A stretch of 64,000 nt of DNA from Minisyncoccia bacterium (GTDB lineage Bacteria > Patescibacteriota > Minisyncoccia > UBA6257 > 2-01-FULL-56-20), in assembly GCA_050008535.1 (NCBI GenBank), contig JBEKML010000001.1:391050-455049 (forward strand). Direction: 5' to 3'. Under the pieces are notes generated by a model that had not been told where the DNA came from, did not search any database, and saw only the letters and a list, made by a program, of their open reading frames with translations. Position 1 is the first letter of the stretch; each line of letters begins with the position of its first letter. This document shows, piece after piece, positions 27,646 to 60,072 of this stretch. The position numbers and the translations under genes were made by a program.

Positions 27646-27725
27646 CGTGACTAAGAAATGATACTCAAACTGCCGCTGCTTGTTACTGCATCGGTCCCGC
27701 AACTGGAGCGTGGTATAATATAAAC

Positions 27726-28844: not shown

Positions 28845-28964
28845 GTAAAACTAGACGTTATACGCCAAAGCATAAATCTAATCGGCGCGAAAATGAGTAA
28901 GGCGCACATCCAGCCGGGCTGGGCGTGCGCCTTAGAATGGTACGAATGCGAACTGCGGCCGACG

Positions 28965-29333
28965 CTAGCGGCCGCTGGATGCGGCTTGTGAGTGCCACCG
29001 CCCCCTCTTTCGCCAGCTTGTTGACTCTTGCCCGGCGGGCGCGTATGCCTGGTGGTTCAGGCCGTGCGCATCGTGTCCGGGTTTTGGAATGTGGGGGATG
29101 CCGGCGACCTGTTCCGGACGGGCGCCGTCTGTCCGGAATAACATCCCACCGATCCATTCGAAGACGGCGGACGGGTCAGCGGCGCTGCGCTCCGCAAGTC
29201 TCTTGTACCGCTTGCGGCGAGCGAGGTAATGCTCCGGCCCTCGTTGCGGGTTCGCAGCGGTGCCTATCGGCTGTTCGGAAGCCGAACGGAAGAACTGTCC
29301 CATACCTACTCCTTCCTTGTGGTATTCGCCCAC
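28965..29333 (-). CDS. hypothetical protein (questionable)
   Basis: ORF in a high-GC patch; alternative start MGQFFRSA at about 29303. Confidence 0.25.
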   Translation of the reverse strand: MGEYHKEGVGMGQFFRSASEQPIGTAANPQRGPEHYLARRKRYKRLAERSAADPSAVFEWIGGMLFRTDGARPEQVAGIPHIPKPGHDAHGLNHQAYAPAGQESTSWRKRGRWHSQAASSGR

Positions 29334-29397
29334 AAGTTCTGGACGCTAAAACAATAGTACTCCTCCAGTACTGCCGCATCAAGCGATGCCGAATCCA

Positions 29398-29443
29398 GTG
29401 CTCTTACTCGGTGCTCCGGCGGCTGGACGATATGAGAACTTGT
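29398..29443 (+). repeat. repeat copy F
   Basis: cttactcggtgctccggcggctggacgatatgagaacttgt. Confidence 0.6.
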
Positions 29444-29578
29444 CTACTCACCTAAAATCGTCAACGTTGCTGATGATCTTAGGTGGATGGGCAGAGGCAG
29501 CATGAGTGATGCTGCGTGCCCATTGATGGGCGTGTTTCGCGTTAGCGGCAATCCGCGGGTTGCGGCTAATGGGGCCGG

Positions 29579-30097
29579 TCATTCCGTGCCCTTGCCCAGA
29601 AGTTTTAAGGCGCGGGAGATCCTCCTCTCGGTCATCGCCTTGTCGTGGGTGTGCGCGAGGTATGCAGCCCGAAGCGGTTCGGTCCCGACGAGCCTAATGG
29701 CAAAAGCGTCAGCCATCTGATCCTCATATTCTCTCTCGCGTGCATTCGGGTTGGGATTGCGAGCATTTCTCGCAATATGCCCAAGTTCGTGGGCGAGGGC
29801 TCCAATGAGAGCGGCGTTTGAAAAGCGGGTGAAGGTGAAGCGTGAAGCGACGATGGTCGTTGTCTTCCGTCGACGTGATGCCGCCACAAAAGAACGTTCG
29901 TCTCCTTCCTGCACGCAAAGCTGGATCGGCATCGCCTGACTGCCGATTTTGAGCTGTAGTGCTTCGAGAAGCGCGTACGCGCGATGTCCGCTCTCCAGAA
30001 GAACACGTCCTGGAAATTCTTGGGTGCATTCGGCTGTACCGGCGTGGGCGGAGTTTGCGGAAAAAAGGAGAAACACCAGAGCGGCCAACTTTTTCAT
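29579..30097 (-). CDS. secreted HExxH zinc metallopeptidase-like protein
   Basis: Signal peptide MKKLAALVFLLFSANSAHA; HELGH motif. Confidence 0.55.
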   Translation of the reverse strand: MKKLAALVFLLFSANSAHAGTAECTQEFPGRVLLESGHRAYALLEALQLKIGSQAMPIQLCVQEGDERSFVAASRRRKTTTIVASRFTFTRFSNAALIGALAHELGHIARNARNPNPNAREREYEDQMADAFAIRLVGTEPLRAAYLAHTHDKAMTERRISRALKLLGKGTE

Positions 30098-30136
30098 CTT
30101 AAGTCTCCTGCCCGAAGTTTAGCACAAGGCCTATGT

Positions 30137-30625
30137 CTAATCCATTATTTGCGCAAAAAGCACCACATAATTCTTGCCGTATGCTTTGGCGCACTTCGGA
30201 CAAGTGGTATAGGAAAAATATAATTTTTTTAATCCCTTGCCCTTGCTTTTTACATATTCTTTCATCTCCTGCGCCCACTTGCCGACATTTTGATAGGGGC
30301 CTTCAAATACTTTAGTAAGAAATGTTCCTGAAAGTGTTGCCATTTGCGCGCCCGGAACACCTCCGGAAGCATCAATGTAAATATCCGCACCCCAGAGAGA
30401 TTTCTCATCAGTTAACATTAATTGCTGTGGCGCTTTGGCGCTTGCTTTCTCGATCAGTTTCATATTCTTGACCACCTTTCTCCCCATGTTAATGGGAATG
30501 TGCAAAAAGCTGGTGACATGATCCTTCACAAAAATTTTATCTTTCCAGATGATCTTTTTGTCCCGCCACGGTTCAGGATTAAACGGCTCGCAGCAACCGG
30601 TTGATTTTATTGTTTGATTAGCCAT
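30137..30625 (-). CDS. hypothetical protein (162 aa)
   Basis: ORF with normal composition; no family recognised. Confidence 0.5.
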   Translation of the reverse strand: MANQTIKSTGCCEPFNPEPWRDKKIIWKDKIFVKDHVTSFLHIPINMGRKVVKNMKLIEKASAKAPQQLMLTDEKSLWGADIYIDASGGVPGAQMATLSGTFLTKVFEGPYQNVGKWAQEMKEYVKSKGKGLKKLYFSYTTCPKCAKAYGKNYVVLFAQIMD

Positions 30626-30667
30626 ACCCTTATTCTACCAAAAAACCGCCCGATTAACGATTTTTAT

Positions 30668-30700
30668 TTGCTCCGGCGGGGCTGGAGGACGTTAGAACCT
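30668..30700 (+). repeat. repeat copy G
   Basis: ttgctccggcggggctggaggacgttagaacct, then TATAAT (30709-30714) and the ATG at 30727. Confidence 0.6.
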
Positions 30701-30726
30701 TTATTTGTTATAATCAAAAATATTGA

Positions 30727-31770
30727 ATGAATAGGATCTTCTTGGGTTTGTTGATTTTTGTGCCGCTTGCTATAGCAGCCCATTTTCTCGCCATCTCTCC
30801 GGTCGTTGTTTTCTTTTTGTGTGCTCTTGGCATCATTCCGCTTGCAAAATTCATTGGCGAAGCCACCGAAGAATTGTCCGTTCACGTGGGGTCGGCCCTT
30901 GGCGGATTGCTTAATGCGACTTTCGGTAACGCAACGGAGTTGATCATTGGGATATTCGCGATTAGAGCGGGGCTCATAGAAGTCGTAAGAGCGTCGCTAA
31001 CTGGTTCCGTTATCGGAAATCTGTTACTGGTGCTTGGCACCGCAATGTTTGCGGGAGGTCTCCGCCATAAAAAGCAGGAATTTAACAGGACTGCAGCGGT
31101 AGCGAGCGGGAGCTCTCTTTTTCTTGCGGTCATAGCGCTTGTTATTCCGACGATATTTCTACAGACTCTTTCGGCGGCGAACAGCGGCCTGATCAATGAA
31201 ATTAGTTGGATAATATCTCTTCTCATAATTGCCCTCTATGCTGCGGGATTATGGTTTTCGCTCTTTACGCACAAACACCTTTACACCGAAGAGGTTGGCA
31301 AGCTGGAAACGAAGTGGAGCACAAAAAAGAGCATCTCGATTCTGCTTGTCGCAACGCTTGCAGTCGCGTGGGTGAGCGAGATCCTGGTAGGCTCCATCGA
31401 GCCGCTTATCGCGCGTTTTGGGTGGACAGAGCTCTTCTTGGGAGTGGTATTTATCGCTATCATAGGCAACGCTGCAGAGCACGTCTCCGCGATTTCGATG
31501 GCAGTCAAAAATCGGATGGATCTTGCCCTTCAGGTTTCCATCGGTTCCGCAACACAGATCATTATGTTCGTCACGCCGTTTCTCGTGATCATCAGTTTGT
31601 TTTTCCCAACGCCGATGCCTTTGATATTCAAAATGCTGGAGATGGCCTCGATCGTCCTGTCGGTGGTCCTGATCAATCTCATAATAGCTGACGGGGAGAG
31701 CAATTGGCTCGAGGGATTGCAGCTTCTTGTGGCGTACGCCATCATGGCCGTCGCCTTTTTCTTTTCTTGA
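30727..31770 (+). CDS. Ca2+/H+ antiporter (CaCA family)
   Basis: Two GNATE/GNAAEH alpha-repeat motifs (FGNATELIIGI, IIGNAAEHVSAI); about 10 TM. Confidence 0.85.
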   Translation: MNRIFLGLLIFVPLAIAAHFLAISPVVVFFLCALGIIPLAKFIGEATEELSVHVGSALGGLLNATFGNATELIIGIFAIRAGLIEVVRASLTGSVIGNLLLVLGTAMFAGGLRHKKQEFNRTAAVASGSSLFLAVIALVIPTIFLQTLSAANSGLINEISWIISLLIIALYAAGLWFSLFTHKHLYTEEVGKLETKWSTKKSISILLVATLAVAWVSEILVGSIEPLIARFGWTELFLGVVFIAIIGNAAEHVSAISMAVKNRMDLALQVSIGSATQIIMFVTPFLVIISLFFPTPMPLIFKMLEMASIVLSVVLINLIIADGESNWLEGLQLLVAYAIMAVAFFFS

Positions 31771-31781
31771 GGAAGCAAAAA

Positions 31782-31812
31782 AACATCAGCTTTCGCTGAT
31801 GTTCGTCCTTTT
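31782..31812 (+). terminator. rho-independent terminator after CaCA gene
   Basis: aacatcagc tttc gctgatgtt followed by cgtccttttct. Confidence 0.5.
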
Positions 31813-31845
31813 CTGCTCCGGCAGCTGGACGACGTTAGAACCTGT
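31813..31845 (+). repeat. repeat copy H
   Basis: ctgctccggcagctggacgacgttagaacctgt; the stop of the minus gene lies 10 nt downstream. Confidence 0.6.
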
Positions 31846-31855
31846 CCGAGTTAGC

Positions 31856-32152
31856 TTACTTGTTCCCAGCCAGTAAAAGTTCTCTCACTTTTTTCCTGAG
31901 GCCGCCGGTCCTCGTAATACTATTTATATATATGGGTATAGGTGCCTTACGGGCATTTTCAATGCGCGTTTTAAGTTCGTTCGCAGAATAGGTTTTGTGA
32001 CCCCCCCGCAATTCTCCGATTTGATCGAGCGCGGTATATAGTTCATGGAAGTCCCGCGCCTCAGTAATAGATGGAAATTCATTTTCTTCTTGCGGGATGC
32101 GAGATGGCGTTTCTTCGGGGTCTTCCATCGCCGGTATTTGCTCGTGGTCCAT
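31856..32152 (-). CDS. hypothetical protein (98 aa)
   Basis: ORF only. Confidence 0.4.
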   Translation of the reverse strand: MDHEQIPAMEDPEETPSRIPQEENEFPSITEARDFHELYTALDQIGELRGGHKTYSANELKTRIENARKAPIPIYINSITRTGGLRKKVRELLLAGNK

Positions 32153-32170
32153 ATTCTTATTATACCTATT

Positions 32171-32752
32171 TTACCCTAGAATTAGTTTCGTAACCTCGGC
32201 CATTTTACGCGGATTCGCTTTCGCTTCGAGAATCCTGATCTTTAATTCTTGGTCGCCGAATTCGTCGCGCACAACCATGTTTACGAATTCCTCGAAATCC
32301 ACCAGCTTAAGTTCTATTTTTTCGGCCCCATCCAGACTTTGCTCTCCTACCTTCTTGCAACCCTTTGCAATAAAAGTATATACGGCCCAATCTATCTTGC
32401 TGACGGGCTGAACGGCGTCAAAGAGCAGCCACTCTTTGGCTTGGTATCCTGTCTCCTCAAGAAGCTCCCGTTGCGCGGTTTCTAACGCATCCTCTCCCTC
32501 ATCGATACGTCCTCCAATCAGTCCGATGAAAGGCTTTTTGCCCGGCTGCTCCTGGAGGCCCGCGATAATCTTCCCGTCTTCGGTAACGGGGACGATCATT
32601 GCCGTATCGGGCCTTTTGATCTTCTCGAACGTTCTCGTTGAACCGTCGTAACCCTTGACATCCCACTGGTAAACATCAAACAGAATGCCCCTGAACACCC
32701 TTTTGGCATCTTCCGGCATGGGCTGTTTTGAGGACGGTCTTACTATGTTCAC
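32171..32752 (-). CDS. NUDIX hydrolase
   Basis: Nudix box GGRIDEGEDALETAQRELLEETG. Confidence 0.8.
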   Translation of the reverse strand: MNIVRPSSKQPMPEDAKRVFRGILFDVYQWDVKGYDGSTRTFEKIKRPDTAMIVPVTEDGKIIAGLQEQPGKKPFIGLIGGRIDEGEDALETAQRELLEETGYQAKEWLLFDAVQPVSKIDWAVYTFIAKGCKKVGEQSLDGAEKIELKLVDFEEFVNMVVRDEFGDQELKIRILEAKANPRKMAEVTKLILG

Positions 32753-32804
32753 AGGACAAGTATATCGCCTTTTGCTACGCGGTGCGATTTATAGCTTGGG
32801 ATAC

Positions 32805-33809
32805 TTAGTGCGATTTAAGCACCTCATCCAGCCAGGAGTTTTGATAAAAGTCTCGAACCTTATCCATCACTTTGCTAAAAGCCCGTTTTCTCCAAAGACC
32901 GTTTTGATAATCAACGATGGTTTCCAGCAGCGGGTCGAGGTAATAGAGTTTCACGCGTTCGACCAGCTTTTTGGTCTCAAAAAGTGCGGGGTAATATTTC
33001 TTGAGCCAGTCCAATTCTCTCGTCATTTGATAACCCTCATAGAGTGATTCAAGCCGCCCTTCCACGGTGTAGAGGGGGTCATGGAACGTATCCAAAATTT
33101 TCCAGAGTTCAAAGTCTTTGGGCGCCTGGGCCACCCAGTCCAGATCTATGATTCCCGTAAGCCGATCGCCCTCGTAAAAAATGTTTTCCAGATGGATGTC
33201 GGAATGCGTGAGTACTGCAGTACCAATCTCATCCAGGCTGGCGATATGGTCGTGATAATATTTTTCTAGAACCTCTACGTTTACCAAAAGCTCCTTTGGG
33301 AGCTTTTCCTTTTGAAGGAGCCTGACTTCTTTCACGATGGGTTTCTCAATAGCCGCTCGCAAGTTTTGATACCGTTTCTCCGCTACTATCGGGATACAGT
33401 AACTATCAAAGGAAATTGAATGCCAGATTTGCAATTGCTCGGCAAGCTGGGCAATGAGCTTTTCTTTTTTAGTGTCCCCAAATGACATCCAGTCATCAGC
33501 CAGGTTATTCCCCCTTACCTTTTCCATGAGGATGTAGGGTTTTCCATCCACGCTGTCAAAGTCCAAGATCTTGGGCACCTTAGCGCCCTTAGCCAATAAT
33601 TGCGCGGTCAGGTCGGGCACGGGTTTGAGAAGCTCGTGCTGCGGCCCAAACTCGCTGTCACCCTCAATCTTGAGTATGTACTCATTGCCCAAGCCATAAA
33701 CGCGATTGACAACCCCGCTTAAGAAACGCTTGGCTTCCGGCAATTCTTTCAGCCCGTTTTTCTTAGCAACAAATGCAATTATTTTTGAGTCAAGAGCCTC
33801 CGCTTCCAT
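32805..33809 (-). CDS. aminoglycoside-phosphotransferase-like (APH/choline-kinase fold) kinase
   Basis: LTHSDIHLENIFY (HxDxxxxN catalytic loop) and IIDLDW (DxD). Confidence 0.75.
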   Translation of the reverse strand: MEAEALDSKIIAFVAKKNGLKELPEAKRFLSGVVNRVYGLGNEYILKIEGDSEFGPQHELLKPVPDLTAQLLAKGAKVPKILDFDSVDGKPYILMEKVRGNNLADDWMSFGDTKKEKLIAQLAEQLQIWHSISFDSYCIPIVAEKRYQNLRAAIEKPIVKEVRLLQKEKLPKELLVNVEVLEKYYHDHIASLDEIGTAVLTHSDIHLENIFYEGDRLTGIIDLDWVAQAPKDFELWKILDTFHDPLYTVEGRLESLYEGYQMTRELDWLKKYYPALFETKKLVERVKLYYLDPLLETIVDYQNGLWRKRAFSKVMDKVRDFYQNSWLDEVLKSH

Positions 33810-33827
33810 ACAAAGCTATTCTACCAG

Positions 33828-33870
33828 AATTTGCTCCGGCGGCTGGAGGATATGAGAACCTATTCTGTCT
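33828..33870 (+). repeat. repeat copy I
   Basis: tttgctccggcggctggaggatatgagaacctattctgtctgg. Confidence 0.6.
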
Positions 33871-33884
33871 GGGCCGCCGCTTTT

Positions 33885-34016
33885 TGTTAAAACAAAAGCC
33901 GATAGATGATCACAATAAGAGCAATCACAAGCAGTACATGAATCAATTTTCCCCCAATTTTGAAGCCGAATCCCAATAGCCAAAGAACGAATAAAACTAT
34001 AATGATTGTCCAAAGC
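33885..34016 (-). CDS. small membrane protein, UPF0391/DUF1328-like (43 aa)
   Basis: Own translation: MLWTIIIVLFVLWLLGFGFKIGGKLIHVLLVIALIVIIYRLLF. Not in the track, which shows a different-frame ORF 33816..34013. Confidence 0.45.
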
Positions 34017-34069
34017 ATATTTTTATTTCACCACCTTAAATGAAGCTACGGCGCCCGGGGGGATGTCGG

Positions 34070-34633
34070 CTATTTTGGTAGTGGTGAGTTAGGAAGAATA
34101 TTCGTCATATCGCTAAAAGTGATCCCTGCAGGAAGAGCGAATACGCTCGCGTTCGTGGTCCAATTACTACAGGAGTAATTAACTTTCTTATTCGGGTCGA
34201 ATCCCTGATTCGGGCCTGGGCCTTGCTGGTTCTCGGTCGTCGCGAGGGCCATTTTAACGCCCTCCTTTGTGGCGTCGGTCCACACGTAGCTCGTGTTGCC
34301 CAAGATGATCATGTGGCTCCCGATGGCCTTGCCCGAAACGACGGAAGTGAAATCACCCCGCAGTTGTCCCTGCGCCACATAGACGGTTCCCTCCGATGAG
34401 GCCGTGAGGCTCGTGGCATCGGTGAACGTGCATTTTTGGGAAGAGCCCAGGGCGAGCAATCCTTTAAGCGTCATGCCGCTTGCCGAGGATGGGGGAGGCG
34501 TGGTCCCGGGGGCTCCCGGGGTTCCTGCAGTTTGAGACGTTCCCGGCGTGGAAGATGGTTTGTAAAATATGAACATTGCGGCGGCGGCGACCACGACGAC
34601 GGCAATGAGCACGTATATTAGTTTTTTATTCAT
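34070..34633 (-). CDS. hypothetical secreted protein (membrane-anchored, Pro/Thr-rich linker)
   Basis: N-terminal TM helix followed by a PGTSQTAGTPGAPGTTPPPS linker. Confidence 0.5.
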   Translation of the reverse strand: MNKKLIYVLIAVVVVAAAAMFIFYKPSSTPGTSQTAGTPGAPGTTPPPSSASGMTLKGLLALGSSQKCTFTDATSLTASSEGTVYVAQGQLRGDFTSVVSGKAIGSHMIILGNTSYVWTDATKEGVKMALATTENQQGPGPNQGFDPNKKVNYSCSNWTTNASVFALPAGITFSDMTNILPNSPLPK

Positions 34634-34690
34634 AGATTTAAGTATAGCATGTTGGCTATTCGTTTCTTACCCACAGGTTTCATTATGGCC

Positions 34691-34748
34691 CTTGGTCTGT
34701 CCGATACTTTTACTCGGTGCTTCAGCGGCCGGACGATGTTAGAACCTG
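34691..34748 (+). repeat. repeat copy J (full length with flank)
   Basis: cttggtctgtccgatacttttactcggtgcttcagcggccggacgatgttagaacctg. The TTAGAA inside supplies the TAA stop and the last codons (..NRF*) of the minus gene 34739..35257. Confidence 0.65.
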
Positions 34749-35257
34749 TTTCCTGCGAGTTTTTTAACTGCCTCGATAAATGATTTCTTTCCGGCGGTAT
34801 ATTGCTCTCTGTCGTTTGGGTATTGCTTGGCAAGCCGTTGTTTCAAGTGAGCATAGGCCTTGGTCTTAGAGGGATGCGTTCTTAGAAAGTCACGGAATAA
34901 GAGATCGCTTTTCCATTTCGAGCCGTTATATTTCATAACATGAAGATAATGTGTCCGTTTTTTATCCGGACCTTTGGCGAAGAGGACCTGCCTCCTGAAT
35001 TTTCGGTAGAAGTGGTAACCCATCTCATCCAATGGTTTCACTAGTTTTTTCACATCCTTCAGCCGTCGCAGCCCGGCCGACATATCGATAATAGGCTTGG
35101 CATGCAATCCAGGAATCGCCGTGCTGCCGACATGTTGGATATCAACGACCATATCTCCTACGTGCGCAAGGAGTTTTTTCTTTTCACGTTCGAACGCAAC
35201 CTTCCATTGTTTGTGATATAGGATCAACTTAACCGTTCCGCGTTTAAGGCCGATCAT
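34739..35257 (-). CDS. GrpB family protein (UPF0157)
   Basis: HVGSTAIPGLHAKPIIDM motif; 172 aa. Confidence 0.75.
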   Translation of the reverse strand: MIGLKRGTVKLILYHKQWKVAFEREKKKLLAHVGDMVVDIQHVGSTAIPGLHAKPIIDMSAGLRRLKDVKKLVKPLDEMGYHFYRKFRRQVLFAKGPDKKRTHYLHVMKYNGSKWKSDLLFRDFLRTHPSKTKAYAHLKQRLAKQYPNDREQYTAGKKSFIEAVKKLAGNRF

Positions 35258-35283
35258 GTTTTTATATTATCACGAAAATTCTC

Positions 35284-35314
35284 CGCTCCGGCAGCTGGAC
35301 GATGTGAGAACCTG
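35284..35314 (+). repeat. repeat copy K
   Basis: cgctccggcagctggacgatgtgagaacctg. Confidence 0.6.
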
Positions 35315-35375
35315 GTTAGGGGTCAGCTAGGGGGGGCGTCGTAGACTATGTTCGAACGATTTTGGTTTACCAATC

Positions 35376-37634
35376 CTATCGAGGCAGTCCCTGAAGTTTT
35401 TGGAGCGTCAACATTAAAGATTGCAAAGATTCCAAGATGTTGGCGAGTTGTGCTGATCTTCCCAAAGATGACTGCATCTCAACTAGCGTAAACGTGCTCA
35501 CATGCCAATAGGCCGCATACTGGGAACCGAACGCGGCTTCGCAGGTTGCGAGCGTTTTCCCTATGCCGCAGACGCTGTCAAGATTCTCGTAATAGTTTGT
35601 TGTTTCATCAACAAAAACCGTATAGGTGCCACTGCTCAGTGAGCCTATGTTGGGCGAGGTAATGGTGTAGCTCGTAGTAGAATCCGGCACAACCATTGCT
35701 TGATTGTTCAAAGAAACACCTGACGGGTCGAAAACGTGGACGGACCAGTAGCCCGGTCCTTGCCAACCGCTCATGGAAGGAACGTTCACGAGCGTCGTGC
35801 TGGATGCCGAGATATACGAAGCGTCGAAAGGGGATCTAGCATTGACCGGGGAGGGGTATACACCCATACCTATTGCGGATGAAGTTGCCTGAAGATGGTA
35901 GTCAGTGGTTGAAACAAACCGGGGATCGGCATCAATATTATTCGATCCGCCAGACCATCCTCCAATGTCTGAATTGCTGATATTATAAGTGGGAGAAAGT
36001 ATAGTACTAACTCCTTCGTTGTTATAGTAGGTAATGTTTGAAATACTAAAATTGGGACTGCTGTTCCCCCAAAGAATTGAGTTGGACATCTGCAGGTTTC
36101 CCGATGTGTCCATTCCGCTATGGTTATTGCCGGCCACGGTAACATAGGTAAATAACGCGATCGACGAGGGATCACTCACTGGCACGCCATTTTTGAAAGA
36201 GGAACCGCTATCTATGGACACGCCGCCTCCAAAATTCGAAGCCTGGTTGTTATCAATGAGACAATGGTCAACGGTAACGTAGGTACTATCGTACAACAAA
36301 GCCATCCCGCCGCCACTGACGGCGCGATTACCGGTAAGACGGCATGACTCCAATGTTATATTGTTCGAGCCCAATATTAGGATTCCTCCTCCGATGTCGT
36401 TATTTGCACCACTGTTTTTTACGGTAAGATTCTCAATAATGGCGTATGAAACATTTTCCGCGCGAATCCCATTGGTGCCGCTTTTTGTAATGATTGTTTG
36501 ATCAATTCCAGCACCTTCAAGGCAGACGCCGCTTTTCATAATGAGGTTCTCGTTATAAGTTCCCGCAGCTACTCGAATAGTATCTCCCGTATTCGCAGCA
36601 TTAATTGCAGCCTGAATACTTGAATAGTCGCCGGGGACATTTTTGATCGTCTGATCGCAAACAGGGAATGCAGTTGCTGTAATTGGGCTTGCCTGCGTTG
36701 TGGCAGACGCTTGGTTCGACTGGCCCGAAACATTTCCTGCGGCGTCATAAGCAGCGACGGTGTAGGTGTAGGCGGTGGAAGCCTGAAGGCCGCTATCTGA
36801 ATAGGAAGATGTTGCAGATGCGGTTGACGCAGAGGTCGTTGCAATTTGCGCACCGCCCCGATAAATTCTGTATCCAACTACCCCAACGTTATCGGTGGAA
36901 TTCAACCAGGAAAGATTTATTTGGCTCGGTGAAGCGGCGGCAGCAGAAAGATTAGTGGGTACTGAGGGAGCCGTCGTGTCTGTGGAGGTAGCAGTCAATG
37001 GCGGTGGAGTCGATGGCGGAGGAGCTGTCCCACCACCTCCACCTCCACCACCACCTCCGCCACCGCCACCACCCGTTGAGGGTGTGGCTGGCGTGACAAG
37101 AATCGCAGGCGTCGCCGGCGTCGCAGGGGTCGCTGGCGTAGCAGGAACCAGCCCTGACGGCGTGGGGCTGCTGGCAGACGTAAGACCTGGCGGGATTACG
37201 CCCGATTGTCCAGCGCCAGTCGTTACCAACTCGTTAAGTTTCGCTTGGGTTTTTGGCCCTACGATACCAACAGACTCAATGCCATTCTGTCCCTGGAATT
37301 TTTTAACCGCTACCTCCGTAAGCGGACCGAAGTATCCAGTTACCAATCCTTCGGGATACACATCGGGGAAGGTTTTCAGAAACTCCTGCAGTTGTTTTAC
37401 GTCGTCGCCGGTAGTTCCCTGCGTTAAGACCCTGCTAAACTTGAGTTCTGTTTTCACGGATTGTACTTGATTCTGAAGATCCACTACTTGTGCCTGTAGT
37501 GATTGTACCTGCGCTTGGAGTTGTTTTATGGTGTCGAGCAGATCCTGATTCGTCGAGGTCCCATTTTGAGCAAAAGCAGCATTAAAGAACAAAAGGCCGA
37601 CAAGGATTCCCCCCGTCAAGACTTTATTGAACAT
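35376..37634 (-). CDS. large secreted surface protein: coiled coil, PG-binding domain, Pro/Gly tract, FN3, right-handed beta-helix repeats
   Basis: Start MFNKVLTGGILVGLLFFNAAFA (signal peptide) chosen inside track ORF 35376..37787. Contains a PG_binding_1-like segment (DDVKQLQEFL...GYFGPLTEVAVKKFQ), (PAT)x5-PPPPPPP-G14 low complexity, an FN3-like unit, and NxxGxxxxG beta-helix-like repeats. Confidence 0.7.
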   Translation of the reverse strand: MFNKVLTGGILVGLLFFNAAFAQNGTSTNQDLLDTIKQLQAQVQSLQAQVVDLQNQVQSVKTELKFSRVLTQGTTGDDVKQLQEFLKTFPDVYPEGLVTGYFGPLTEVAVKKFQGQNGIESVGIVGPKTQAKLNELVTTGAGQSGVIPPGLTSASSPTPSGLVPATPATPATPATPAILVTPATPSTGGGGGGGGGGGGGGGTAPPPSTPPPLTATSTDTTAPSVPTNLSAAAASPSQINLSWLNSTDNVGVVGYRIYRGGAQIATTSASTASATSSYSDSGLQASTAYTYTVAAYDAAGNVSGQSNQASATTQASPITATAFPVCDQTIKNVPGDYSSIQAAINAANTGDTIRVAAGTYNENLIMKSGVCLEGAGIDQTIITKSGTNGIRAENVSYAIIENLTVKNSGANNDIGGGILILGSNNITLESCRLTGNRAVSGGGMALLYDSTYVTVDHCLIDNNQASNFGGGVSIDSGSSFKNGVPVSDPSSIALFTYVTVAGNNHSGMDTSGNLQMSNSILWGNSSPNFSISNITYYNNEGVSTILSPTYNISNSDIGGWSGGSNNIDADPRFVSTTDYHLQATSSAIGMGVYPSPVNARSPFDASYISASSTTLVNVPSMSGWQGPGYWSVHVFDPSGVSLNNQAMVVPDSTTSYTITSPNIGSLSSGTYTVFVDETTNYYENLDSVCGIGKTLATCEAAFGSQYAAYWHVSTFTLVEMQSSLGRSAQLANILESLQSLMLTLQKLQGLPR

Positions 37635-37649
37635 ATGTTTATTATAACA

Positions 37650-37682
37650 CGCTCCGGCGGCTGGACGATGTGAGAACCTGTT
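37650..37682 (+). repeat. repeat copy L (consensus)
   Basis: cgctccggcggctggacgatgtgagaacctg lies between the start of 35376..37634 and the stop of 37693..39483. Confidence 0.65.
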
Positions 37683-37692
37683 TAAGAAGGGA

Positions 37693-39483
37693 TTATGCCA
37701 CTTCTGCTTGGTAGCACTGCTCGCAGTAGACGATTTCCGGGCGGTCGGGGGCATAGGTGGTTTCGAATTTGTTGGGGCAGGGTTCACTACCGTGAAAATG
37801 AGAGGCGGTATTTATGTAGCTACTTGCCTTTACTCCAGCGCATGCGCACGTACGCTTATAAAGCTGCGGAACATTGCGCCAGCTGATACGCTCTACGTGG
37901 CGGCAATTGAAACACAGCTTCGGCAACGGCAAATTCATTTTCCTATAGAACTGCAATTCTTGCTGAGTGATGCGGAAAACCGTAGGACAATTAGCTCCAC
38001 ATTGGAGTCCGGCATGATCGCCGGTTTCGTCGTGCTTGCACTGGACTATCTCTTGTATGATGTCGTCACCAGTTTCGGCAATGGTGTCGGGCAAGGCGGA
38101 AGCGGCCTTGGTTGGTTCATATTTTCTCTTCTCGGGAACGCGCCAGTTGAACCCCATGTGCTCAACTTGACTCCTCGGAAGTTGAAAATATTCGTATGCT
38201 TGGGATTCATTGAACCCGAAAGGGCTCATGTCGGGCGGGAAAAACTCGCCGTATTTATATATCCTACCCAGCGTATCTACGTAGGGCGTCTCGTTCATAT
38301 GCGCGATGATCTTTGGAATAAGTGATTCGTATTGTTCTTTAGAATACTGCTTATTGAGGATGCAATACTGCGCATTGCGCAGCCCCACGCAGCCGAACAC
38401 TTCCCGCGAGTTGCGGCATGTTATGGAATATCGTACATCGCTCACTGTTTCGCAATCGAACGAAAAATATACTCCGCGCAGGCCTTGTCCGCAGCAGCTT
38501 ATTTCGTAGTTGCGCTCAATATCGACGCCTGAGGAGGTAACGTCCATGCAGTCCCGAATCGGATTGTAGATGACGCTTTGGCAATGTGTGCAGTTTTGCA
38601 CCTCATTCGTAAAAAAACAATTGCGCACCTGGGAGGAGTTGTATATGTAATCACCGGTGCAACCCGCGTCCTGCAGCCCGTGCCGAAAACGGAACGGAAA
38701 CGAAAGCCAAATCCTCTCCGCCTCTTTTTGCATTCTTTCCAATCCCAGCCTTGAATGCAGGTTGAATCCCGCCACTTTTTTTCTATAGTTTTCTTTCGAA
38801 TGCGGCTGGTTAAAAATGTAGTAACTTTTGTTGCGCAAGCCGGTACACCCCACGCAATCGTTGCACCCAACACAATCCTGGCTGAACCATACCTCACGGC
38901 AGCCGGTACAATTCCTGGAAAAGAAGGTCTTATAACAGTTCGTGGTGTTAATCACGTAATAGCAGAGTTCACACAGTTTACAATTGATAGTGTCAAAACA
39001 TTGCTTGCTCTTTTGTAGGGTAACCCCATATGCACTGTCTTCAGAAAACCCTGCATCGAAGCATAGATATGTATTTTTCATATCCAGACCCATGCTGTAA
39101 TCGCTGTTTACCTGGTTGCGGGACATGATGTAGGTGAATGGCATAACATTGAACAAATCCCGTATTTGATCGAAAAACGGCCGCGTAAAATCATATTCCC
39201 GCGCATACGATTTAGGATCCCAAGCGTCGCTCCACCAGTAGTCTCGATCGAAAGGGGGCATGGGCGCATTGGGGGGCACCATGCTGAAAATTTTTTTGCC
39301 AGTGCCAGCGCAGGTGCGTTCGTAAAGATAACGGAAGTTGCGAAACGCCATCCGCCGCATGGCCCGGCATTTCCAGCACCATGTTGGTGGAGGCACGTTG
39401 AGGCTTTTATAGAACGTAAGATCTTCTGGCTCAATCGCAAAATTATTTTTGCAGTTCTGACACGCGCGCGTTTCCTGTTCCAT
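37693..39483 (-). CDS. cysteine-rich protein with N- and C-terminal FmdB-like zinc-ribbon motifs (paralog A)
   Basis: 596 aa. N-terminal CQNCKNNFAIEPEDLTFYKSLNVPPPTWCWKCRAMRRMAFRN; the same motif recurs near the C-terminus. Central Cys repeats (CTGCREVWFSQDCVGCNDCVGC...). The last 23 aa, ETTYAPDRPEIVYCEQCYQAEVA, are identical to paralog 58255..60072. Confidence 0.7.
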   Translation of the reverse strand: MEQETRACQNCKNNFAIEPEDLTFYKSLNVPPPTWCWKCRAMRRMAFRNFRYLYERTCAGTGKKIFSMVPPNAPMPPFDRDYWWSDAWDPKSYAREYDFTRPFFDQIRDLFNVMPFTYIMSRNQVNSDYSMGLDMKNTYLCFDAGFSEDSAYGVTLQKSKQCFDTINCKLCELCYYVINTTNCYKTFFSRNCTGCREVWFSQDCVGCNDCVGCTGLRNKSYYIFNQPHSKENYRKKVAGFNLHSRLGLERMQKEAERIWLSFPFRFRHGLQDAGCTGDYIYNSSQVRNCFFTNEVQNCTHCQSVIYNPIRDCMDVTSSGVDIERNYEISCCGQGLRGVYFSFDCETVSDVRYSITCRNSREVFGCVGLRNAQYCILNKQYSKEQYESLIPKIIAHMNETPYVDTLGRIYKYGEFFPPDMSPFGFNESQAYEYFQLPRSQVEHMGFNWRVPEKRKYEPTKAASALPDTIAETGDDIIQEIVQCKHDETGDHAGLQCGANCPTVFRITQQELQFYRKMNLPLPKLCFNCRHVERISWRNVPQLYKRTCACAGVKASSYINTASHFHGSEPCPNKFETTYAPDRPEIVYCEQCYQAEVA

Positions 39484-39518
39484 TACCTCAATTCTATCAG
39501 ATTAAAAAAATCGTACGT

Positions 39519-39590
39519 CTCTCGGTCTGTCCGATACTTTTACTGGGTGCTCCCCAAGTCGGACTTGAATTTTTTGGGGCAAGTCCCACA
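39519..39590 (+). repeat. repeat copy N (most tRNA-trailer-like, degenerate core)
   Basis: ctctcggtctgtccgatacttttactgggtgctccccaagtcggacttgaa. The first 20 nt almost match the tRNA-Asn trailer ctctcggtcggtccgatact at 40353-40372. Confidence 0.55.
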
Positions 39591-40329: not shown

Positions 40330-40388
40330 TTGGATGTTCGCGTCTCCACGGACCGCCTCTCGGTCGGTCCGATACTAAATGTTGCCTG

Positions 40389-40460
40389 CTCCGGCGCCAG
40401 GACTCGAACCTGGAACCATCTCCTTAACAGGGAGCCGCTCTACCATTGAGCTACGCCGGA
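40389..40460 (-). tRNA. tRNA-Asn (anticodon GTT)
   Basis: Reverse complement tccggcgtagctcaatggtagagcggctccctgttaaggagatggttccaggttcgagtcctggcgccggag folds as a cloverleaf: acceptor TCCGGCG/CGCCGGA, D-arm GCTC-AATGGTA-GAGC, anticodon loop CU-GUU-AA, T-arm CCAGG-TTCGAGT-CCTGG, discriminator G. CCA is not encoded. Confidence 0.85.
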
Positions 40461-57431: not shown

Positions 57432-58277
57432 ATGGAGTTTTTTGACGCGCACACGCATGTGCAGTTTTCGGCATACGACGCCGATCGTGACGAAGTGATC
57501 CGCCGCGCGCGGGATGCGGGCATCCGGATGGTGAATGTGGGCACCCAGCGCGACACCTCGGCGCGCGCCGTCGCGCTTGCGGAACAACACGAAGGACTCT
57601 ATGCGGCCGTGGGGCTTCACCCCATTCACACAAGCGTTTCGTTCCATGATGCGGACGAGCTCGGTGGCGGCGAGGCTGCAAAAGCGTTCACCTCGCGCGG
57701 CGAGGTTTTTGATCGCGATCATTATCTGGAACTTGCACGGCATCCGAAAGTGGTCGCGATCGGCGAGTGCGGATTGGATTATTTCCATTTCAACGAGAAT
57801 GAAAGCCGCGAAGACCAGATAAAAAAACAGAAAGCGGCGCTTTTGGTGCAGATCGAGTTCTCGCGCGAAGTAAAAAAACCGCTCATGATCCATTGCCGCG
57901 ATGCGTTCGCCGACCTTATTCAGATATTAAAAGAAAGTTCCGCAAACCCTTTGGGCGCGAATCCCGGCATTATCCATTTTTTTACCGGCACATCCGACGA
58001 GGCGCGCGCATTGCTTGGCCTCGGTTTTTCTTTCACCTTCGGCGGCGTCATCACGTTTGCGCGGAACTACGACGAGCTCATACGGCTTGTGCCGCTTGAC
58101 CGGCTCCTCTCCGAAACCGATGCGCCGTACGTCGCGCCCGCGCCCTATCGCGGCAGGCGCAACGAACCCGCGTACGTGGTGGAGGTCGTGAAAAAACTCG
58201 CCGAGCTCAAAGATGTTTCGCTGGACGGGATGCGGGAACAGATTGGAAAAAATGTCCGGCGCGTGTTTGGGGTATAA
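57432..58277 (+). CDS. tatD: TatD family deoxyribonuclease
   Basis: MEFFDAHTHVQFS..., ...GECGLDY..., ...ETDAPY motifs. Confidence 0.8.
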   Translation: MEFFDAHTHVQFSAYDADRDEVIRRARDAGIRMVNVGTQRDTSARAVALAEQHEGLYAAVGLHPIHTSVSFHDADELGGGEAAKAFTSRGEVFDRDHYLELARHPKVVAIGECGLDYFHFNENESREDQIKKQKAALLVQIEFSREVKKPLMIHCRDAFADLIQILKESSANPLGANPGIIHFFTGTSDEARALLGLGFSFTFGGVITFARNYDELIRLVPLDRLLSETDAPYVAPAPYRGRRNEPAYVVEVVKKLAELKDVSLDGMREQIGKNVRRVFGV

Positions 58278-60072
58278 TAAGATCATTCCCGAAGCTCAAA
58301 CCAAAACCTGCCAGAATTGCAAAGCCCAGTTCGCCATAAAGCCAGAGGATTTTGCGTTCTATGAAAAGATCGGCGTCCCGCCGCCGACGTTCTGTTTTGA
58401 TTGCCGGGCGCAGCGGCGCATGGCATTCCGGAACGAACGGGCGCTGTATCGGAGAAAGTGCGATTTTCCCGGGCATACCGAGGAGCTCATTTCTATCTTT
58501 GCGCCGGACAATCCCCAGCGCGTCTATGACCATGCGGCATGGTGGGGAGACGGCTGGGATCCATTGAAATACGGGCGCGCCATTGATTTTTCCCGGCCCT
58601 TTTTTGAACAGGTGCGGGAGCTTTGGCGCGAAGTGCCCGACATTGCGCTTATGAACATCAATCCGGTGAACAGCGAATATTGCAGCATCACGGAAGGAAA
58701 CAAAAATTGTTATCTGGTATTCGGCGGCGATTTCAACGAAGACACGCTCTATTCCACCTATACGTTCCACAGTAAATTTTGCGTTGATACGTACTGGGTG
58801 GACAAGTCGGAGTTCAATTACGAAACGGTGGACTGCATATCCTGCAGCCGCTTGCTCTACAGCCGCTATTGCGAAGGGTGTTACGATGGCGCGTTTCTCT
58901 TCAATTGCCGCAATTGCCACGATTGTTTCGGGTGCGCAAACCTTACGAACGGCAGCTATCAGATTTTTAACGTGCAACACACGAAAGAGGACTATCAAAA
59001 GAAATTGAGCGAGCTCAATCTTTCTTCGCGGCGCGCCTTGGACAATATCAAAGAAAAATTCGCGGAGCATATGCTCAAATATCCGCGCCGATTCGCGAAG
59101 ATGATCCATTGCACGAACTCTTCGGGCGACAACATGGAGAACTGTAAAAATTGCACGCAGTGCTTTGATGTGTTTGGCGGGGGAGAGGATTGCCGACGCT
59201 CATTTCTTTTGTACTCAACAGTGAAGGACGGCATGGACATTGATCATGTGGGGCTTGGGACCGAACTTAGCTACGAAACCTCCACGGCTTATCCGGGGAG
59301 CAGGATCTTCTTCTCCCGTTTTGTCTTCACCTGCCATGACGTGCAGTATTCCTACAACGTGCATAACGCGGCATATCTTTTCGGATGTGTGGGCGTGCGG
59401 AGCAAGCAGTATTGTATTCTGAACAAGCAATATTCAAAAGAAGAGTATGAAGCGCTTGTGCCGAAGATCGTCGCGCATATGAATACGATGCCGTATCGTG
59501 ATGCGTCCGGACGCGAGTACCGCTATGGAGAGTTCTTCCCTGAGGAGCTTTCGCCGTTCACCTATAACGAAACGCTGGCGCAGGAAATGTTCCCGTTGAC
59601 ACCCGCCGAGGCGCAGCAAAAGGGATATCCGTGGCGCGAACCGGATGAAAAGAAGCATGTGTCGACGATCGCGGCGGGCGCGGTTCCGGATACGCTCCGG
59701 CAGGTTCCCGATGCCATTGTGGATGAAATAATTGAGTGCGCGCACAAAGGAGCGTGCATGACCGACCAGTGCACGAAGGCATTCAGGGTCGTGCCGGCAG
59801 AACTTGCATTGTACCGAAAGATGAATATTCCGCTTCCCGCGCTTTGCCCCAGCTGTCGGCACTTCGCGCGCATCCGCCAGCGGAATCCCATGACATTATG
59901 GAAACGGGCGTGCCAATGCGCCGGTGCCGATGCGGAAAAGGGAGGATATAAAAATGTGGCGAAGCATCCCCACGGCACCGGCCGCTGTCCGAATGAATTT
60001 GAAACCACTTACGCCCCCGACCGCCCCGAGATCGTCTACTGCGAACAGTGCTACCAGGCGGAGGTGGCGTGA
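58255..60072 (+). CDS. cysteine-rich protein with N- and C-terminal FmdB-like zinc-ribbon motifs (paralog B)
   Basis: CQNCKAQFAIKPEDFAFYEKIGVPPPTFCFDCRAQRRMAFRNE at the N-terminus, a central Cys-repeat region, and the C-terminal 23 aa identical to 37693..39483. The start could be earlier (track 58213). Confidence 0.65.
   Translation, partial: SGACLGYNKIIPEAQTKTCQNCKAQFAIKPEDFAFYEKIGVPPPTFCFDCRAQRRMAFRNERALYRRKCDFPGHTEELISIFAPDNPQRVYDHAAWWGDGWDPLKYGRAIDFSRPFFEQVRELWREVPDIALMNINPVNSEYCSITEGNKNCYLVFGGDFNEDTLYSTYTFHSKFCVDTYWVDKSEFNYETVDCISCSRLLYSRYCEGCYDGAFLFNCRNCHDCFGCANLTNGSYQIFNVQHTKEDYQKKLSELNLSSRRALDNIKEKFAEHMLKYPRRFAKMIHCTNSSGDNMENCKNCTQCFDVFGGGEDCRRSFLLYSTVKDGMDIDHVGLGTELSYETSTAYPGSRIFFSRFVFTCHDVQYSYNVHNAAYLFGCVGVRSKQYCILNKQYSKEEYEALVPKIVAHMNTMPYRDASGREYRYGEFFPEELSPFTYNETLAQEMFPLTPAEAQQKGYPWREPDEKKHVSTIAAGAVPDTLRQVPDAIVDEIIECAHKGACMTDQCTKAFRVVPAELALYRKMNIPLPALCPSCRHFARIRQRNPMTLWKRACQCAGADAEKGGYKNVAKHPHGTGRCPNEFETTYAPDRPEIVYCEQCYQAEVA

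What the first reader, a model, noticed from the sequence alone, without database searches (positions are those of the whole stretch)
37693..39483. Paralogous ~600-aa Cys-rich zinc-ribbon proteins with identical 23-aa C-termini; one copy abuts the tRNA-Asn/repeat array
Genes 37693..39483 (minus) and 58255..60072 (plus) encode proteins of about 600 aa. Both have an FmdB-like zinc-ribbon motif (C-x2-C...F.I.PED..FY.K...P.P..C..CR..RRMAFRN) at the N-terminus, repeated near the C-terminus, plus central C-x2-C-x2-C-x-GC repeats. Overall identity is only moderate, but the last 23 residues (ETTYAPDRPEIVYCEQCYQAEVA) are 100% identical. The underlying DNA carries about 10 synonymous differences in 69 nt, which points to purifying selection rather than recent gene conversion. 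I recognise no characterised family. Copy A is the only large gene between the tRNA-Asn integration site and the first consensus repeat, the position where an element's recombinase or maintenance gene would normally sit. A role in the cassette system is pure speculation.
Basis: seen in the sequence. Interest (0 to 1): 0.65.

Follow-up and report, generated by a model that had tools for sequence, protein, structure and literature searches.

The report
Uncharacterised zinc-rich Patescibacteria protein family
The two genes are anciently diverged members of a very large, unannotated protein family found here only in ultra-small Patescibacteria; their identical tails are a zinc-binding knuckle conserved across the whole family, and one copy is merely carried as cargo inside the tRNA-linked repeat array rather than running it.

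Summary
Both ORFs are real: 596 aa and 605 aa, 45% identical, with the last 23 residues identical. The 69 nt beneath differ at 9 positions, all third-codon.

The identity is not special to this pair. The tail carries two of the four cysteines of a C-terminal Cys4 site that is about 99% conserved across the family.

The family is very large (at least 4,915 clusters at 50% identity). Every homologue that carries a source name is called hypothetical, and nearly all organism labels are Patescibacteria. It has no significant Pfam, NCBIfam or PDB match. It is absent from the phage, plasmid and viral collections.

Predicted architecture (pLDDT 91): a treble-clef zinc finger, two duplicated beta-solenoid modules, a conserved alpha/beta region, a second treble-clef finger and a terminal zinc knuckle.

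Other genomes hold 2-9 tandem paralogues. These often sit inside a cluster of three VirD4-like ATPases. A and B belong to different old subfamilies.

The cassette-system idea is not supported. Homologues show no tRNA or repeat association, other arrays of the same repeat lack the family, and copy A is itself bracketed by repeats.

Function is unknown. My best guess, at low confidence, is a nucleic-acid- or partner-binding scaffold working with orphan VirD4-like ATPases.

The parts
37693..39483 (-). Copy A: 596-aa family member of a small subfamily (cluster 23). It lies between two copies of the array repeat.
   Evidence: ORF. An identical protein, P0001, sits on JGI contig Ga0187878_1012025. 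Subfamily assignment. GC is 48.7%, against a backbone mean of 55%.
39295..39483 (-). A residues 1-63: N-terminal treble-clef-like Cys4 finger (C8, C11, C36, C39), followed by an Arg-rich helix CRxxRRxxxRN.
   Evidence: The four Cys are 97-98% conserved in 202 members. The segment is homologous to residues 497-551. Weak PF13451 hits occur in 7 of 56 members.
38764..39111 (-). A residues 125-240: beta-solenoid module M1, ending in C204-x2-C207-x2-C210-x-G-C213 and the GLRNKSY.IFN..Y.KE.Y motif.
   Evidence: HHalign M1 against M2 gives E 9.5e-27. The AF2 model shows short-strand solenoid structure. Foldseek finds only weak beta-helix hits.
38311..38661 (-). A residues 275-391: beta-solenoid module M2, a duplicate of M1. 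It ends in the most conserved stretch of the family, FGCVGLR.K.YCILNKQYSKEEY.
37831..38040 (-). A residues 482-551: second treble-clef-like Cys4 finger (C482, C499, C524, C527), a duplicate of the N-terminal finger.
37696..37848 (-). A residues 546-596: terminal Cys4 knuckle (C546, C569, C587, C590). The last 23 codons (37696-37764) are the peptide identical to B.
   Evidence: These Cys are 98-99% conserved. HHalign shows a weak resemblance to zf_Tbcl_2 of the neighbouring ATPases: E 4.5e-4, probability 33%. Synonymous-only divergence.
58255..60072 (+). Copy B: 605-aa member of the largest subfamily (cluster 18), sitting among housekeeping genes (metG, tatD, leuS). The identical 23-codon tail is at 60001-60069.
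   Evidence: The same c8 (unscanned ~335-aa neighbour)-metG-family synteny appears in L045. GC is 53.2%.
37645..37680 (+). Consensus copy of the array repeat, 12 nt downstream of A's stop codon.
39514..39564 (+). Degenerate long-form copy of the array repeat, 31 nt upstream of A's start codon.
   Evidence: 78% identical over 51 nt to the copy at 34684-34734. Aligned with the other repeats.
40388..40460 (-). tRNA-Asn (GTT). Its 3' end shares TGCTCCGGCG..GGAC..GAACC with the repeat unit.

Best explanation
Shown:
- A and B are two anciently separated paralogues, from different subfamilies, of a very large family whose sampled members are labelled almost exclusively Patescibacteria.
- Members are about 590 aa and have no TM-like hydrophobic segment, so they are probably cytoplasmic.
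- Each protein carries two homologous treble-clef-like Cys4 fingers, each followed by an Arg-rich helix; a duplicated beta-solenoid module; a highly conserved alpha/beta region; and a terminal Cys4 knuckle.
- The identical 23-residue tail provides two of the four ligands of that last site and is under family-wide purifying selection.
- B is the widespread core type and sits among housekeeping genes. A is an accessory-type copy that, in this genome, lies as cargo between two units of the tRNA-Asn-linked repeat array.

Inferred (about 0.3 for the ATPase link, about 0.45 for nucleic-acid binding):
- The proteins act as rigid zinc-stabilised scaffolds.
- They bind nucleic acid or a nucleoprotein or partner through the two basic fingers.
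- They work with the orphan VirD4/TraG/FtsK-like ATPases that flank them in many genomes.
- The variable solenoid surface gives each paralogue its own specificity.
For: Family size and range:
- 6,779 and 7,497 hits at E <= 1e-3 in two searches. Every hit that carries a source name is called hypothetical, and the named organisms are Patescibacteria lineages.
- 4,915 representatives at 50% identity.
- At least 583 genome loci, nearly all labelled Patescibacteria or unclassified bacterium MAGs.

No characterised relative:
- Pfam, NCBIfam, PADLOC and PDB sequence searches give nothing significant.
- Foldseek against PDB and BFVD gives only weak beta-helix and small zinc-ribbon matches.

Structure:
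- The AF2 model has pLDDT 91.4 and pTM 0.92.
- Internal duplications are confirmed.
- Three Cys4 sets are 88-99% conserved. The solenoid modules are the most variable parts, and residues 361-440 the most conserved.

Paralogy:
- L001 carries an A-type (60% to A), a B-type (62% to B) and a third type in tandem.
- A's closest relative (66%) sits in a four-gene tandem array.
- Up to 9 copies occur per locus, and there are 34 subfamilies at the 45% identity level.

ATPase link:
- TrwB/TraG/VirD4/HerA-like ATPases occur in 34 of 80 loci. 34 of 222 family genes are directly adjacent to one, and 72 of 222 lie within three genes.
- The recurrent gene order is TM-ATPase, small TM protein, soluble ATPase, CutA1, family(n), ATPase with zf_Tbcl_2.
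- The literature reports about 2 VirD4 homologues per Patescibacteria genome, mostly far from virB4, possibly exapted for other functions (PMC12102498).

Cargo status of A:
- Repeats lie on both sides of the gene, and its GC is low.
Against: - No biochemical or expression data exist for any member.
- Neither window copy is near a VirD4-like ATPase.
- Many B-type copies sit next to unrelated housekeeping genes: uvrABC/fmt-def, the infA-rpsM-rpoA operon, and metG/leuS. The ATPase adjacency, seen in about 40% of loci, may therefore be inherited synteny rather than functional coupling.
- Loci are not phylogenetically independent, and no random-locus control was available.
- Nucleic-acid binding is inferred only from Arg-rich helices after the fingers.
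- The zf_Tbcl and zf_Tbcl_2 resemblances are below curated thresholds.
- The GC difference of A from the backbone is only about 1.7 SD.
Confidence: 0.5

Rival explanations
1. One reading: copy A is the recombinase or maintenance gene of the tRNA-Asn-linked cassette array.
For: A lies within 1 kb of tRNA-Asn and next to the first consensus repeat. It has zinc fingers that could bind DNA. No integrase was found in the window ORFs scanned.
Against: - No recombinase, transposase or nuclease domain is detectable.
- 46 of 60 homologue loci have no tRNA nearby, and none has tRNA-Asn.
- The repeat is absent from all other family loci.
- Eleven other repeat-bearing stretches (49.5 kb, arrays of 3-8 units) encode no family member.
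- A is bracketed by repeats like the other cargo genes.
- Its relatives normally sit in tandem arrays among housekeeping genes.
Confidence: 0.03
2. A housekeeping nucleic-acid-binding (RNA or DNA) or zinc-dependent factor that works independently of the VirD4-like ATPases. The adjacency to those ATPases is inherited gene order only.
For: - B-type copies lie among translation and repair genes in several unrelated arrangements.
- B-type is often the only copy in a locus.
- Arg-rich helices follow both fingers.
- Purifying selection is strong across the family.
Against: - A core single-function factor is not expected to expand to 9 tandem paralogues in genomes of about 1 Mb.
- Family genes are interleaved with ATPase paralogues in several different arrangements, not in one fixed order.
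Confidence: 0.27
3. The family members are translocated substrates or effectors of a VirD4/FtsK-like export machine. The invariant C-terminal peptide serves as the recognition signal, by analogy with C-terminal signals of type IV and type VII substrates.
For: - The family clusters with three distinct T4CP-like ATPases, one of them membrane-anchored, and with a small TM protein.
- The C-terminus is invariant.
- Paralogue expansion is typical of host-interaction proteins.
- That C-terminal signals are recognised by coupling proteins is established knowledge, not tested here.
Against: - The C-terminal peptide is explained structurally, as half of a Cys4 site.
- The whole protein is conserved, not just a tail on variable cargo.
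- A protein with at least three Cys4 zinc sites is a poor candidate for export.
- No channel components were seen among the recurring neighbours whose domains were scanned.
Confidence: 0.12
4. A conflict or defence module: a diversifying sensor or effector paired with HerA/FtsK-type ATPases.
For: - The family forms tandem, diversified paralogue arrays with a variable solenoid surface.
- HerA/DUF87-type ATPase neighbours are present.
- Copy A lies in a variable island with accessory genes.
- There is a weak PADLOC candidate hit: PDC-M01A, E 0.017.
Against: - There is no significant PADLOC match.
- The family is absent from phage, plasmid and IMG/VR collections.
- It is widely retained, with a core subfamily in housekeeping contexts.
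- No nuclease or toxin domain is present.
Confidence: 0.08
5. The identical C-termini result from recent gene conversion between A and B.
For: 100% amino-acid identity over 23 residues in proteins that are otherwise 45% identical.
Against: - 9 of about 14.7 synonymous sites differ in those 23 codons.
- The same peptide is conserved across thousands of homologues.
Confidence: 0.01

Closest known systems
zf_Tbcl (Pfam PF13451, probable treble-clef domain)
   Same: - The spacing is the same: C-x2-C ... F ... FY ... C-x2-C-R, with a basic helix after the second pair.
- 7 of 56 members give weak hits, best E 1.2e-3.
- One homologue (P0372) carries a precomputed PF13451 hit.
- Phage 'putative zinc-ribbon domain' models superpose on this region at rmsd 0.5-0.6 over 36-40 residues.
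   Different: - Neither window protein reaches even E = 1.
- The finger covers only about 50 of about 600 residues, and it occurs twice.
- The rest of the protein has no counterpart in that family.
zf_Tbcl_2 (Pfam PF23477), as found at the C-terminus of the neighbouring VirD4-like ATPases
   Same: The terminal peptide C-P-N-x-F-E-T-S-Y-A-P-D-R-P-E-I-V-Y-C-E-x-C aligns with C-G-K-x-T-x-V-P-F-x-P-x-x-G-R-P-V-Y-C-x-x-C of the ATPases. HHalign gives E 4.5e-4 over 26 columns.
   Different: - The probability is only 33%, and there is no Pfam hit.
- In the family, the first Cys pair is replaced by two distant cysteines (C546, C569).
Left-handed beta-helix (hexapeptide-repeat) proteins: GlmU, LpxA/LpxD, gamma-carbonic anhydrase
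   Same: They are the best, and only, Foldseek PDB matches to the two central modules. This indicates a beta-solenoid shape.
   Different: - The matches are weak: E 0.009-0.3, TM <= 0.2, rmsd 10-19 A, identity 6-12%.
- There is no Hexapep Pfam hit.
- Turns are cysteine-rich rather than built on the hexapeptide motif.
- There is no acyltransferase context.
   Same: A small four-cysteine ribbon with two C-x2-C pairs.
   Different: Only 1 of 56 members hits it, at E 0.57. The spacing and the FY/CR..RR signature fit zf_Tbcl better.
Substrates of type IV coupling proteins that carry conserved C-terminal recognition domains (for example Xanthomonas XVIPCD proteins). This is a functional analogy from general knowledge.
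   Same: A conserved C-terminus, together with genomic linkage to VirD4-like ATPases.
   Different: - Here the whole protein is conserved, not only the tail.
- No toxin domain is present.
- No T4SS channel genes were seen among the recurring neighbours whose domains were scanned.
- The analogy was not tested.

Membership tests
zf_Tbcl (PF13451) | Match to the Pfam HMM at or above the gathering threshold | tested here: inconclusive
   A and B give no hit at E <= 1. 7 of 56 homologues give weak hits, best E 1.2e-3. One homologue has a precomputed PF13451 hit.
zf_Tbcl (PF13451) | Two C-x2-C pairs about 24 residues apart, with a basic helix after the second pair | tested here: met
   C8/C11 and C36/C39, and again C499/(C482) and C524/C527, each followed by CRxxRR...RN. 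Conservation is 88-98%.
zf_Tbcl_2 (PF23477) | Profile similarity of the C-terminal peptide to the domain as seen in the neighbouring ATPases | tested here: inconclusive
   HHalign gives E 4.5e-4 at probability 33% over 26 columns. Pfam gives no hit.
FmdB / Zn_ribbon_8 (PF09723) | Match to the Pfam HMM | tested here: not met
   1 of 56 members hits, at E 0.57. A and B give none.
Hexapeptide-repeat left-handed beta-helix acyltransferases | Hexapep sequence repeats and a close structural superposition | tested here: not met
   No Hexapep hit. The best Foldseek match has E 9.4e-3, TM 0.08-0.2 and rmsd above 10 A.
Site-specific recombinases (tyrosine or serine integrases) of tRNA-linked islands or integrons | A recombinase catalytic domain detectable by profile search | tested here: not met
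   No Pfam, NCBIfam or PDB match of any kind.
Site-specific recombinases (tyrosine or serine integrases) of tRNA-linked islands or integrons | Homologues co-localise with tRNA genes or with the repeat array | tested here: not met
   46 of 60 loci have no tRNA and none has tRNA-Asn. The repeat is absent from the other family loci. Other repeat arrays lack the family.
Known anti-phage defence proteins (PADLOC-DB) | Significant match to a PADLOC model | tested here: not met
   A gives none. B gives PDC-M01A at E 0.017 over 50 residues.
Phage or plasmid-borne gene family | Presence in phage, plasmid or viral contig collections | tested here: not met
   No tblastn match in the phage or plasmid collections. 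None was confirmed in IMG/VR. One weak PHROG hit: phrog_15341, E 2.4e-4, unknown function.
Partner or substrate of VirD4-like coupling ATPases | Physical interaction with, or dependence on, the ATPase | not testable with these tools
   Only genomic linkage is available: 34 of 80 loci, and 72 of 222 genes within three genes of an ATPase.

The most novel reading that the evidence does not exclude
The family, together with three distinct orphan VirD4/FtsK-like ATPases (one membrane-anchored, one soluble, one with a zf_Tbcl_2 finger), a small membrane protein and CutA1, forms a previously unrecognised Patescibacteria-specific machine for translocating or handling nucleic acid or protein. In this reading, the multi-zinc beta-solenoid paralogues are interchangeable adaptors or substrates, recognised through their conserved zinc-knuckle ends.
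Probability: 0.2. Interest if true: 0.8.

Novelty: categorically new. Interest (0 to 1): 0.55.

Why it matters
Patescibacteria have genomes of about 1 Mb. A family of 600-aa proteins kept in up to nine tandem copies would take up roughly 2% of such a genome, so it must do something important for their lifestyle.

The family has no Pfam or NCBIfam model, no solved or recognisably similar structure, and no description in the searchable literature.

Its frequent embedding among VirD4-like ATPases is of particular interest. A 2025 survey found these ATPases abundant in this phylum, mostly unlinked to the type IV secretion genes, and possibly exapted for other functions (PMC12102498). The family therefore offers a concrete candidate partner and a testable hypothesis for those orphan ATPases.

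'Categorically new' here refers to the family and its architecture, not to a demonstrated mechanism. Thousands of unannotated homologues already sit in public databases.

For the scan itself, the result removes a false lead: copy A is cargo of the tRNA-Asn repeat array, not its engine.

Tried and rejected
- Curated libraries: Pfam, NCBIfam, PHROGs and PADLOC scans of A and B gave nothing significant. PDB sequence searches with the single protein and with a profile also gave nothing.
- First structure model: the AF2 model built from 56 sequences was poor in the central region (pLDDT 41-72), and Foldseek found nothing. It was replaced by a model built from 150 sequences.
- Weak Pfam hits: Med15_N KIX hits in 14 of 56 members (best E 1.4e-4) were judged probably compositional and were not pursued.
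- Gene conversion as the cause of the identical tail was rejected on the synonymous divergence.
- A full sliding dN/dS profile was not informative, because dS is saturated almost everywhere.
- Transmembrane or signal segments: no TM-like segment was found in 201 of 202 members.
- Repeat as an RNA: Rfam finds only the tRNA, and no 5' acceptor complement sits next to the units (reading).
- Integrase search: none turned up among 30 window ORFs and 5 ORFs of L094.
- Literature: searches for the family, its motifs or the Pfam accessions found nothing relevant.
Full report
**Observation**

Both ORFs exist as described. A runs 37693..39483 on the minus strand and is 596 aa. B is 605 aa from the ATG at 58255 and ends at 60072 on the plus strand. 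BLASTP aligns them end to end at 45% identity (272/600), and the last 23 residues are identical.

The 69 nt encoding that tail differ at nine positions, all third-codon and all synonymous. A Nei-Gojobori count gives 9 synonymous differences on 14.7 synonymous sites (dS about 1.3) and no non-synonymous change. Over the whole pair pS is 0.84, which is saturated.

**The tail is a family-wide feature**

Every one of the 120 best homologues of A ends in a near-identical peptide, F-E-T-S/T-Y-x-P-D/E-R-P-E-I-V-Y-C-E-x-C-Y-Q/N-x-E-V. In an alignment of 202 members from many subfamilies, C546, C569, C587 and C590 are 98-99% conserved.

The tail therefore supplies two of the four ligands of a terminal Cys4 site. 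Two further Cys4 sets are equally conserved: C8/C11/C36/C39 and C482/C499/C524/C527.

**What the proteins look like**

HHalign shows two internal duplications:
- The N-terminal finger (residues 9-63) matches the C-terminal finger (497-551) at E 4e-16.
- A central module (125-240) matches a second one (275-391) at E 9.5e-27.

With a 150-sequence alignment, AlphaFold2 gives a confident single-body model: pLDDT 91.4, pTM 0.92. The two central modules are built of many short strands.

Foldseek against the PDB returns only weak matches, all to beta-helix proteins such as GlmU, LpxD, LpxA and gamma-carbonic anhydrase (E 0.009-0.3, TM <= 0.2). Against viral models it returns beta-helix tail proteins and small phage zinc-ribbon proteins. 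I read the central part as a cysteine-rich beta-solenoid without a recognisable homologue.

The fingers are not FmdB-like. They weakly resemble zf_Tbcl (PF13451): 7 of 56 members hit it, best E 1.2e-3, whereas PF09723 hits one member at E 0.57. Both fingers are followed by an Arg-rich helix, CRxxRRxxxRN.

No TM-like hydrophobic segment is present in 201 of 202 members, so the proteins are probably cytoplasmic. Conservation is highest in the fingers, in residues 201-240 and 361-440, and in the tail. It is lowest in the solenoid bodies.

**Size and range of the family**

- Two word-seeded searches gave 6,779 and 7,497 hits at E <= 1e-3. Every hit that carries a source name is called hypothetical, and the named organisms are Patescibacteria lineages such as Liptonbacteria, Nomurabacteria, Staskawiczbacteria, Paceibacterota and Minisyncoccia.
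- An exhaustive profile search found 4,915 cluster representatives at 50% identity, 2,110 of them below 1e-30.
Of the 80 loci listed, nearly all are labelled Patescibacteria or unclassified bacterium MAGs; one is labelled Gammaproteobacteria.
- Nothing was found in phage records, plasmid records or IMG/VR contigs.
- No Pfam, NCBIfam, PADLOC or PDB relative exists.
- No paper in the searchable library describes the family.

**Paralogy**

Having two copies is the low end of the range. In 80 genome loci I counted 222 family genes, all but two on the same strand as the matched gene within each locus. There are up to nine in 21 kb (L031, L075). At 45% identity they fall into 34 subfamilies.

B belongs to the largest subfamily, with 75 members, and this type is often the sole copy in a locus. 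A belongs to a small subfamily. In L001, an A-type (60% to A), a B-type (62% to B) and a third type lie in tandem. A's closest relative (66%) is the third gene of a four-gene array. A and B are therefore old, separately maintained lineages.

**Genomic context elsewhere**

The only strongly recurrent neighbour is a family of TrwB/TraG/VirD4/HerA-like ATPases (PF10412, PF12696, PF02534, PF01935). There are 65 such genes in 34 of 80 loci.
- 34 of 222 family genes are directly adjacent to one.
- 72 of 222 lie within three genes of one.

A common order is: SecD/SecF, a Sigma70_r4 + HARE-HTH protein, an ATPase with N-terminal TM segments, a 170-aa membrane protein, a soluble ATPase, CutA1, one to several family genes, and then an ATPase carrying a C-terminal zf_Tbcl_2 finger. 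That finger aligns weakly with the family's terminal knuckle (HHalign E 4.5e-4, probability 33%).

A 2025 survey counted 5,713 VirD4 homologues in 2,918 Patescibacteria genomes. Only 148 were near virB4, and the authors raised the possibility of exaptation (PMC12102498). At about two such genes per roughly 1,000-gene genome, chance adjacency within three genes would be near 1% (my estimate), against 32% observed.

Caveats apply:
- The loci share ancestry, so they are not independent.
- No random-locus control was possible.
- Many B-type genes sit instead beside uvrABC, fmt/def, the infA-rpoA operon or aminoacyl-tRNA synthetases.
- Neither window copy has an ATPase nearby.

The repeat array is real. 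A roughly 33-nt unit, TGCTCCGGCGGCTGGACGATGTGAGAACCTGT, occurs on one strand in almost every intergenic gap from 24.7 to 37.7 kb. At three or fewer mismatches there are 8 matches against 0.03 expected. The unit resembles the reverse complement of the tRNA-Asn 3' end.

Copy A is inside this array, not outside it:
- A consensus unit lies 12 nt past its stop codon, at 37645-37680.
- A degenerate long-form unit lies 31 nt before its start codon, at 39514-39564.
- A 222-aa ORF then separates it from the tRNA.

A's GC content (48.7%) fits the island (mean 50.5%) better than the backbone (mean 55.0%, SD 3.8), though not decisively.

Comparative tests go against any role in the array:
- 46 of 60 family loci have no tRNA within about 10 kb, and none has tRNA-Asn.
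- The unit is absent from every other family locus.
- Eleven stretches from other metagenome contigs carry the same unit, some in arrays of 3-8, yet encode no family member in 49.5 kb.

The parsimonious reading is that A is one more cargo gene. The other cargo includes Ham1, NUDIX, APH, GrpB, a Na/Ca exchanger and similar genes.

**Mechanism**

Shown:
- There are three conserved Cys4 sites.
- Fingers and solenoid modules are both duplicated.
- The solenoid bodies are variable and the ends are conserved.
- Paralogues are amplified in tandem.
- The family is linked to VirD4-like ATPases in about 40% of loci.

Inferred:
- The proteins are zinc-stabilised scaffolds that bind nucleic acid or a partner through their basic fingers.
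- They act with the orphan ATPases.
- Paralogue specificity resides on the solenoid surface.

I put about 0.45 on nucleic-acid or partner binding and about 0.3 on the ATPase coupling. Rival readings are a stand-alone housekeeping factor, exported substrates recognised by the tail, and a defence module. All remain open, and each is scored separately in this report.

**Verdict**

The selective-constraint inference is right, but its cause is family-wide. The cassette-system role is not supported.

What remains is a large, undescribed protein family, apparently confined to Patescibacteria, with a novel architecture and a suggestive but unproven link to orphan coupling-protein ATPases.

Noticed in passing
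window 24687-39564 (repeat units at about 24687, 26008, 26962, 27615, 29412, 30671, 31814, 33832, 34718, 35284, 37650 and 39543) and tRNA-Asn 40388-40460: A same-strand array of a roughly 33-nt unit resembling the tRNA-Asn 3' end sits in nearly every intergenic gap. Inside it, gene orientation is mixed, GC is heterogeneous (0.42-0.61), and the cargo consists of accessory enzymes. No integrase was found among the window ORFs scanned. The mechanism is unresolved: recombination cassettes or a regulatory repeat.
   Followed up: partly
L085-L095 (JGI metagenome contigs, e.g. Ga0209515_10000037, Ga0187881_10000067, JGI1358J11329_10001802): The same repeat unit, in places 33 of 33 nt identical, occurs in other genomes that share no other DNA with the window. 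It forms arrays of 3-8 copies. The cargo there includes an aldo-keto reductase and an alpha/beta hydrolase.
   Followed up: partly
L088 275-303 and the ORF downstream of it; window 30666-31770: L088 repeats the window arrangement of a repeat unit followed by a Na/Ca exchanger gene. The exchanger is 61% identical in protein sequence to the window copy.
   Followed up: partly
L094 10795-10848: A sequence 91% identical to the 5' half of the window's tRNA-Asn, plus its upstream flank, lies about 4.4 kb beyond an 8-unit repeat array. ARAGORN calls no tRNA there. The gene may be interrupted or disrupted.
   Followed up: no
L014, L019, L021, L031, L032, L039, L052, L070 and L072 (and variants in L004, L042, L054, L057, L068): A conserved cluster of three distinct VirD4/TraG/HerA-like ATPases: one with N-terminal TM segments, one soluble, and one with a C-terminal zf_Tbcl_2 finger. 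A 170-aa membrane protein and CutA1 accompany them, and the cluster lies downstream of secDF and a Sigma70_r4 + HARE-HTH gene. No other T4SS components were seen among the recurring neighbours whose domains were scanned.
   Followed up: partly
window 28925-29455 (+): The 3' end of this 176-aa ORF, which has no Pfam hit, runs through the repeat unit at 29407-29442. Either the ORF is over-called or the unit is partly coding here.
   Followed up: no
window 35376-37637 (-) and 11746-12993 (+): Two secreted-looking proteins combine PG_binding_1 with fn3 domains. The larger one has long Gly, Pro-Ala-Thr and Pro low-complexity runs (tandem repeats at 36993-37145) and lies inside the repeat array, directly downstream of copy A.
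   Followed up: no
window 6717-6731: An isolated 13-15-nt fragment of the repeat core (CAGCCGCCGGAGC on the minus strand) lies far outside the array, between two convergent genes. It is probably a chance match or a relic.
   Followed up: no
L096 3698-10782: Three FAM-sized genes (552, 580 and 597 aa) precede the queried B-type homologue, making four in a row. They sit directly upstream of the infA-rpsM-rpsK-rpsD-rpoA-rplQ operon. Family membership of the three neighbours was not checked. The placement suggests co-transcription with core translation and transcription genes in that lineage.
   Followed up: no
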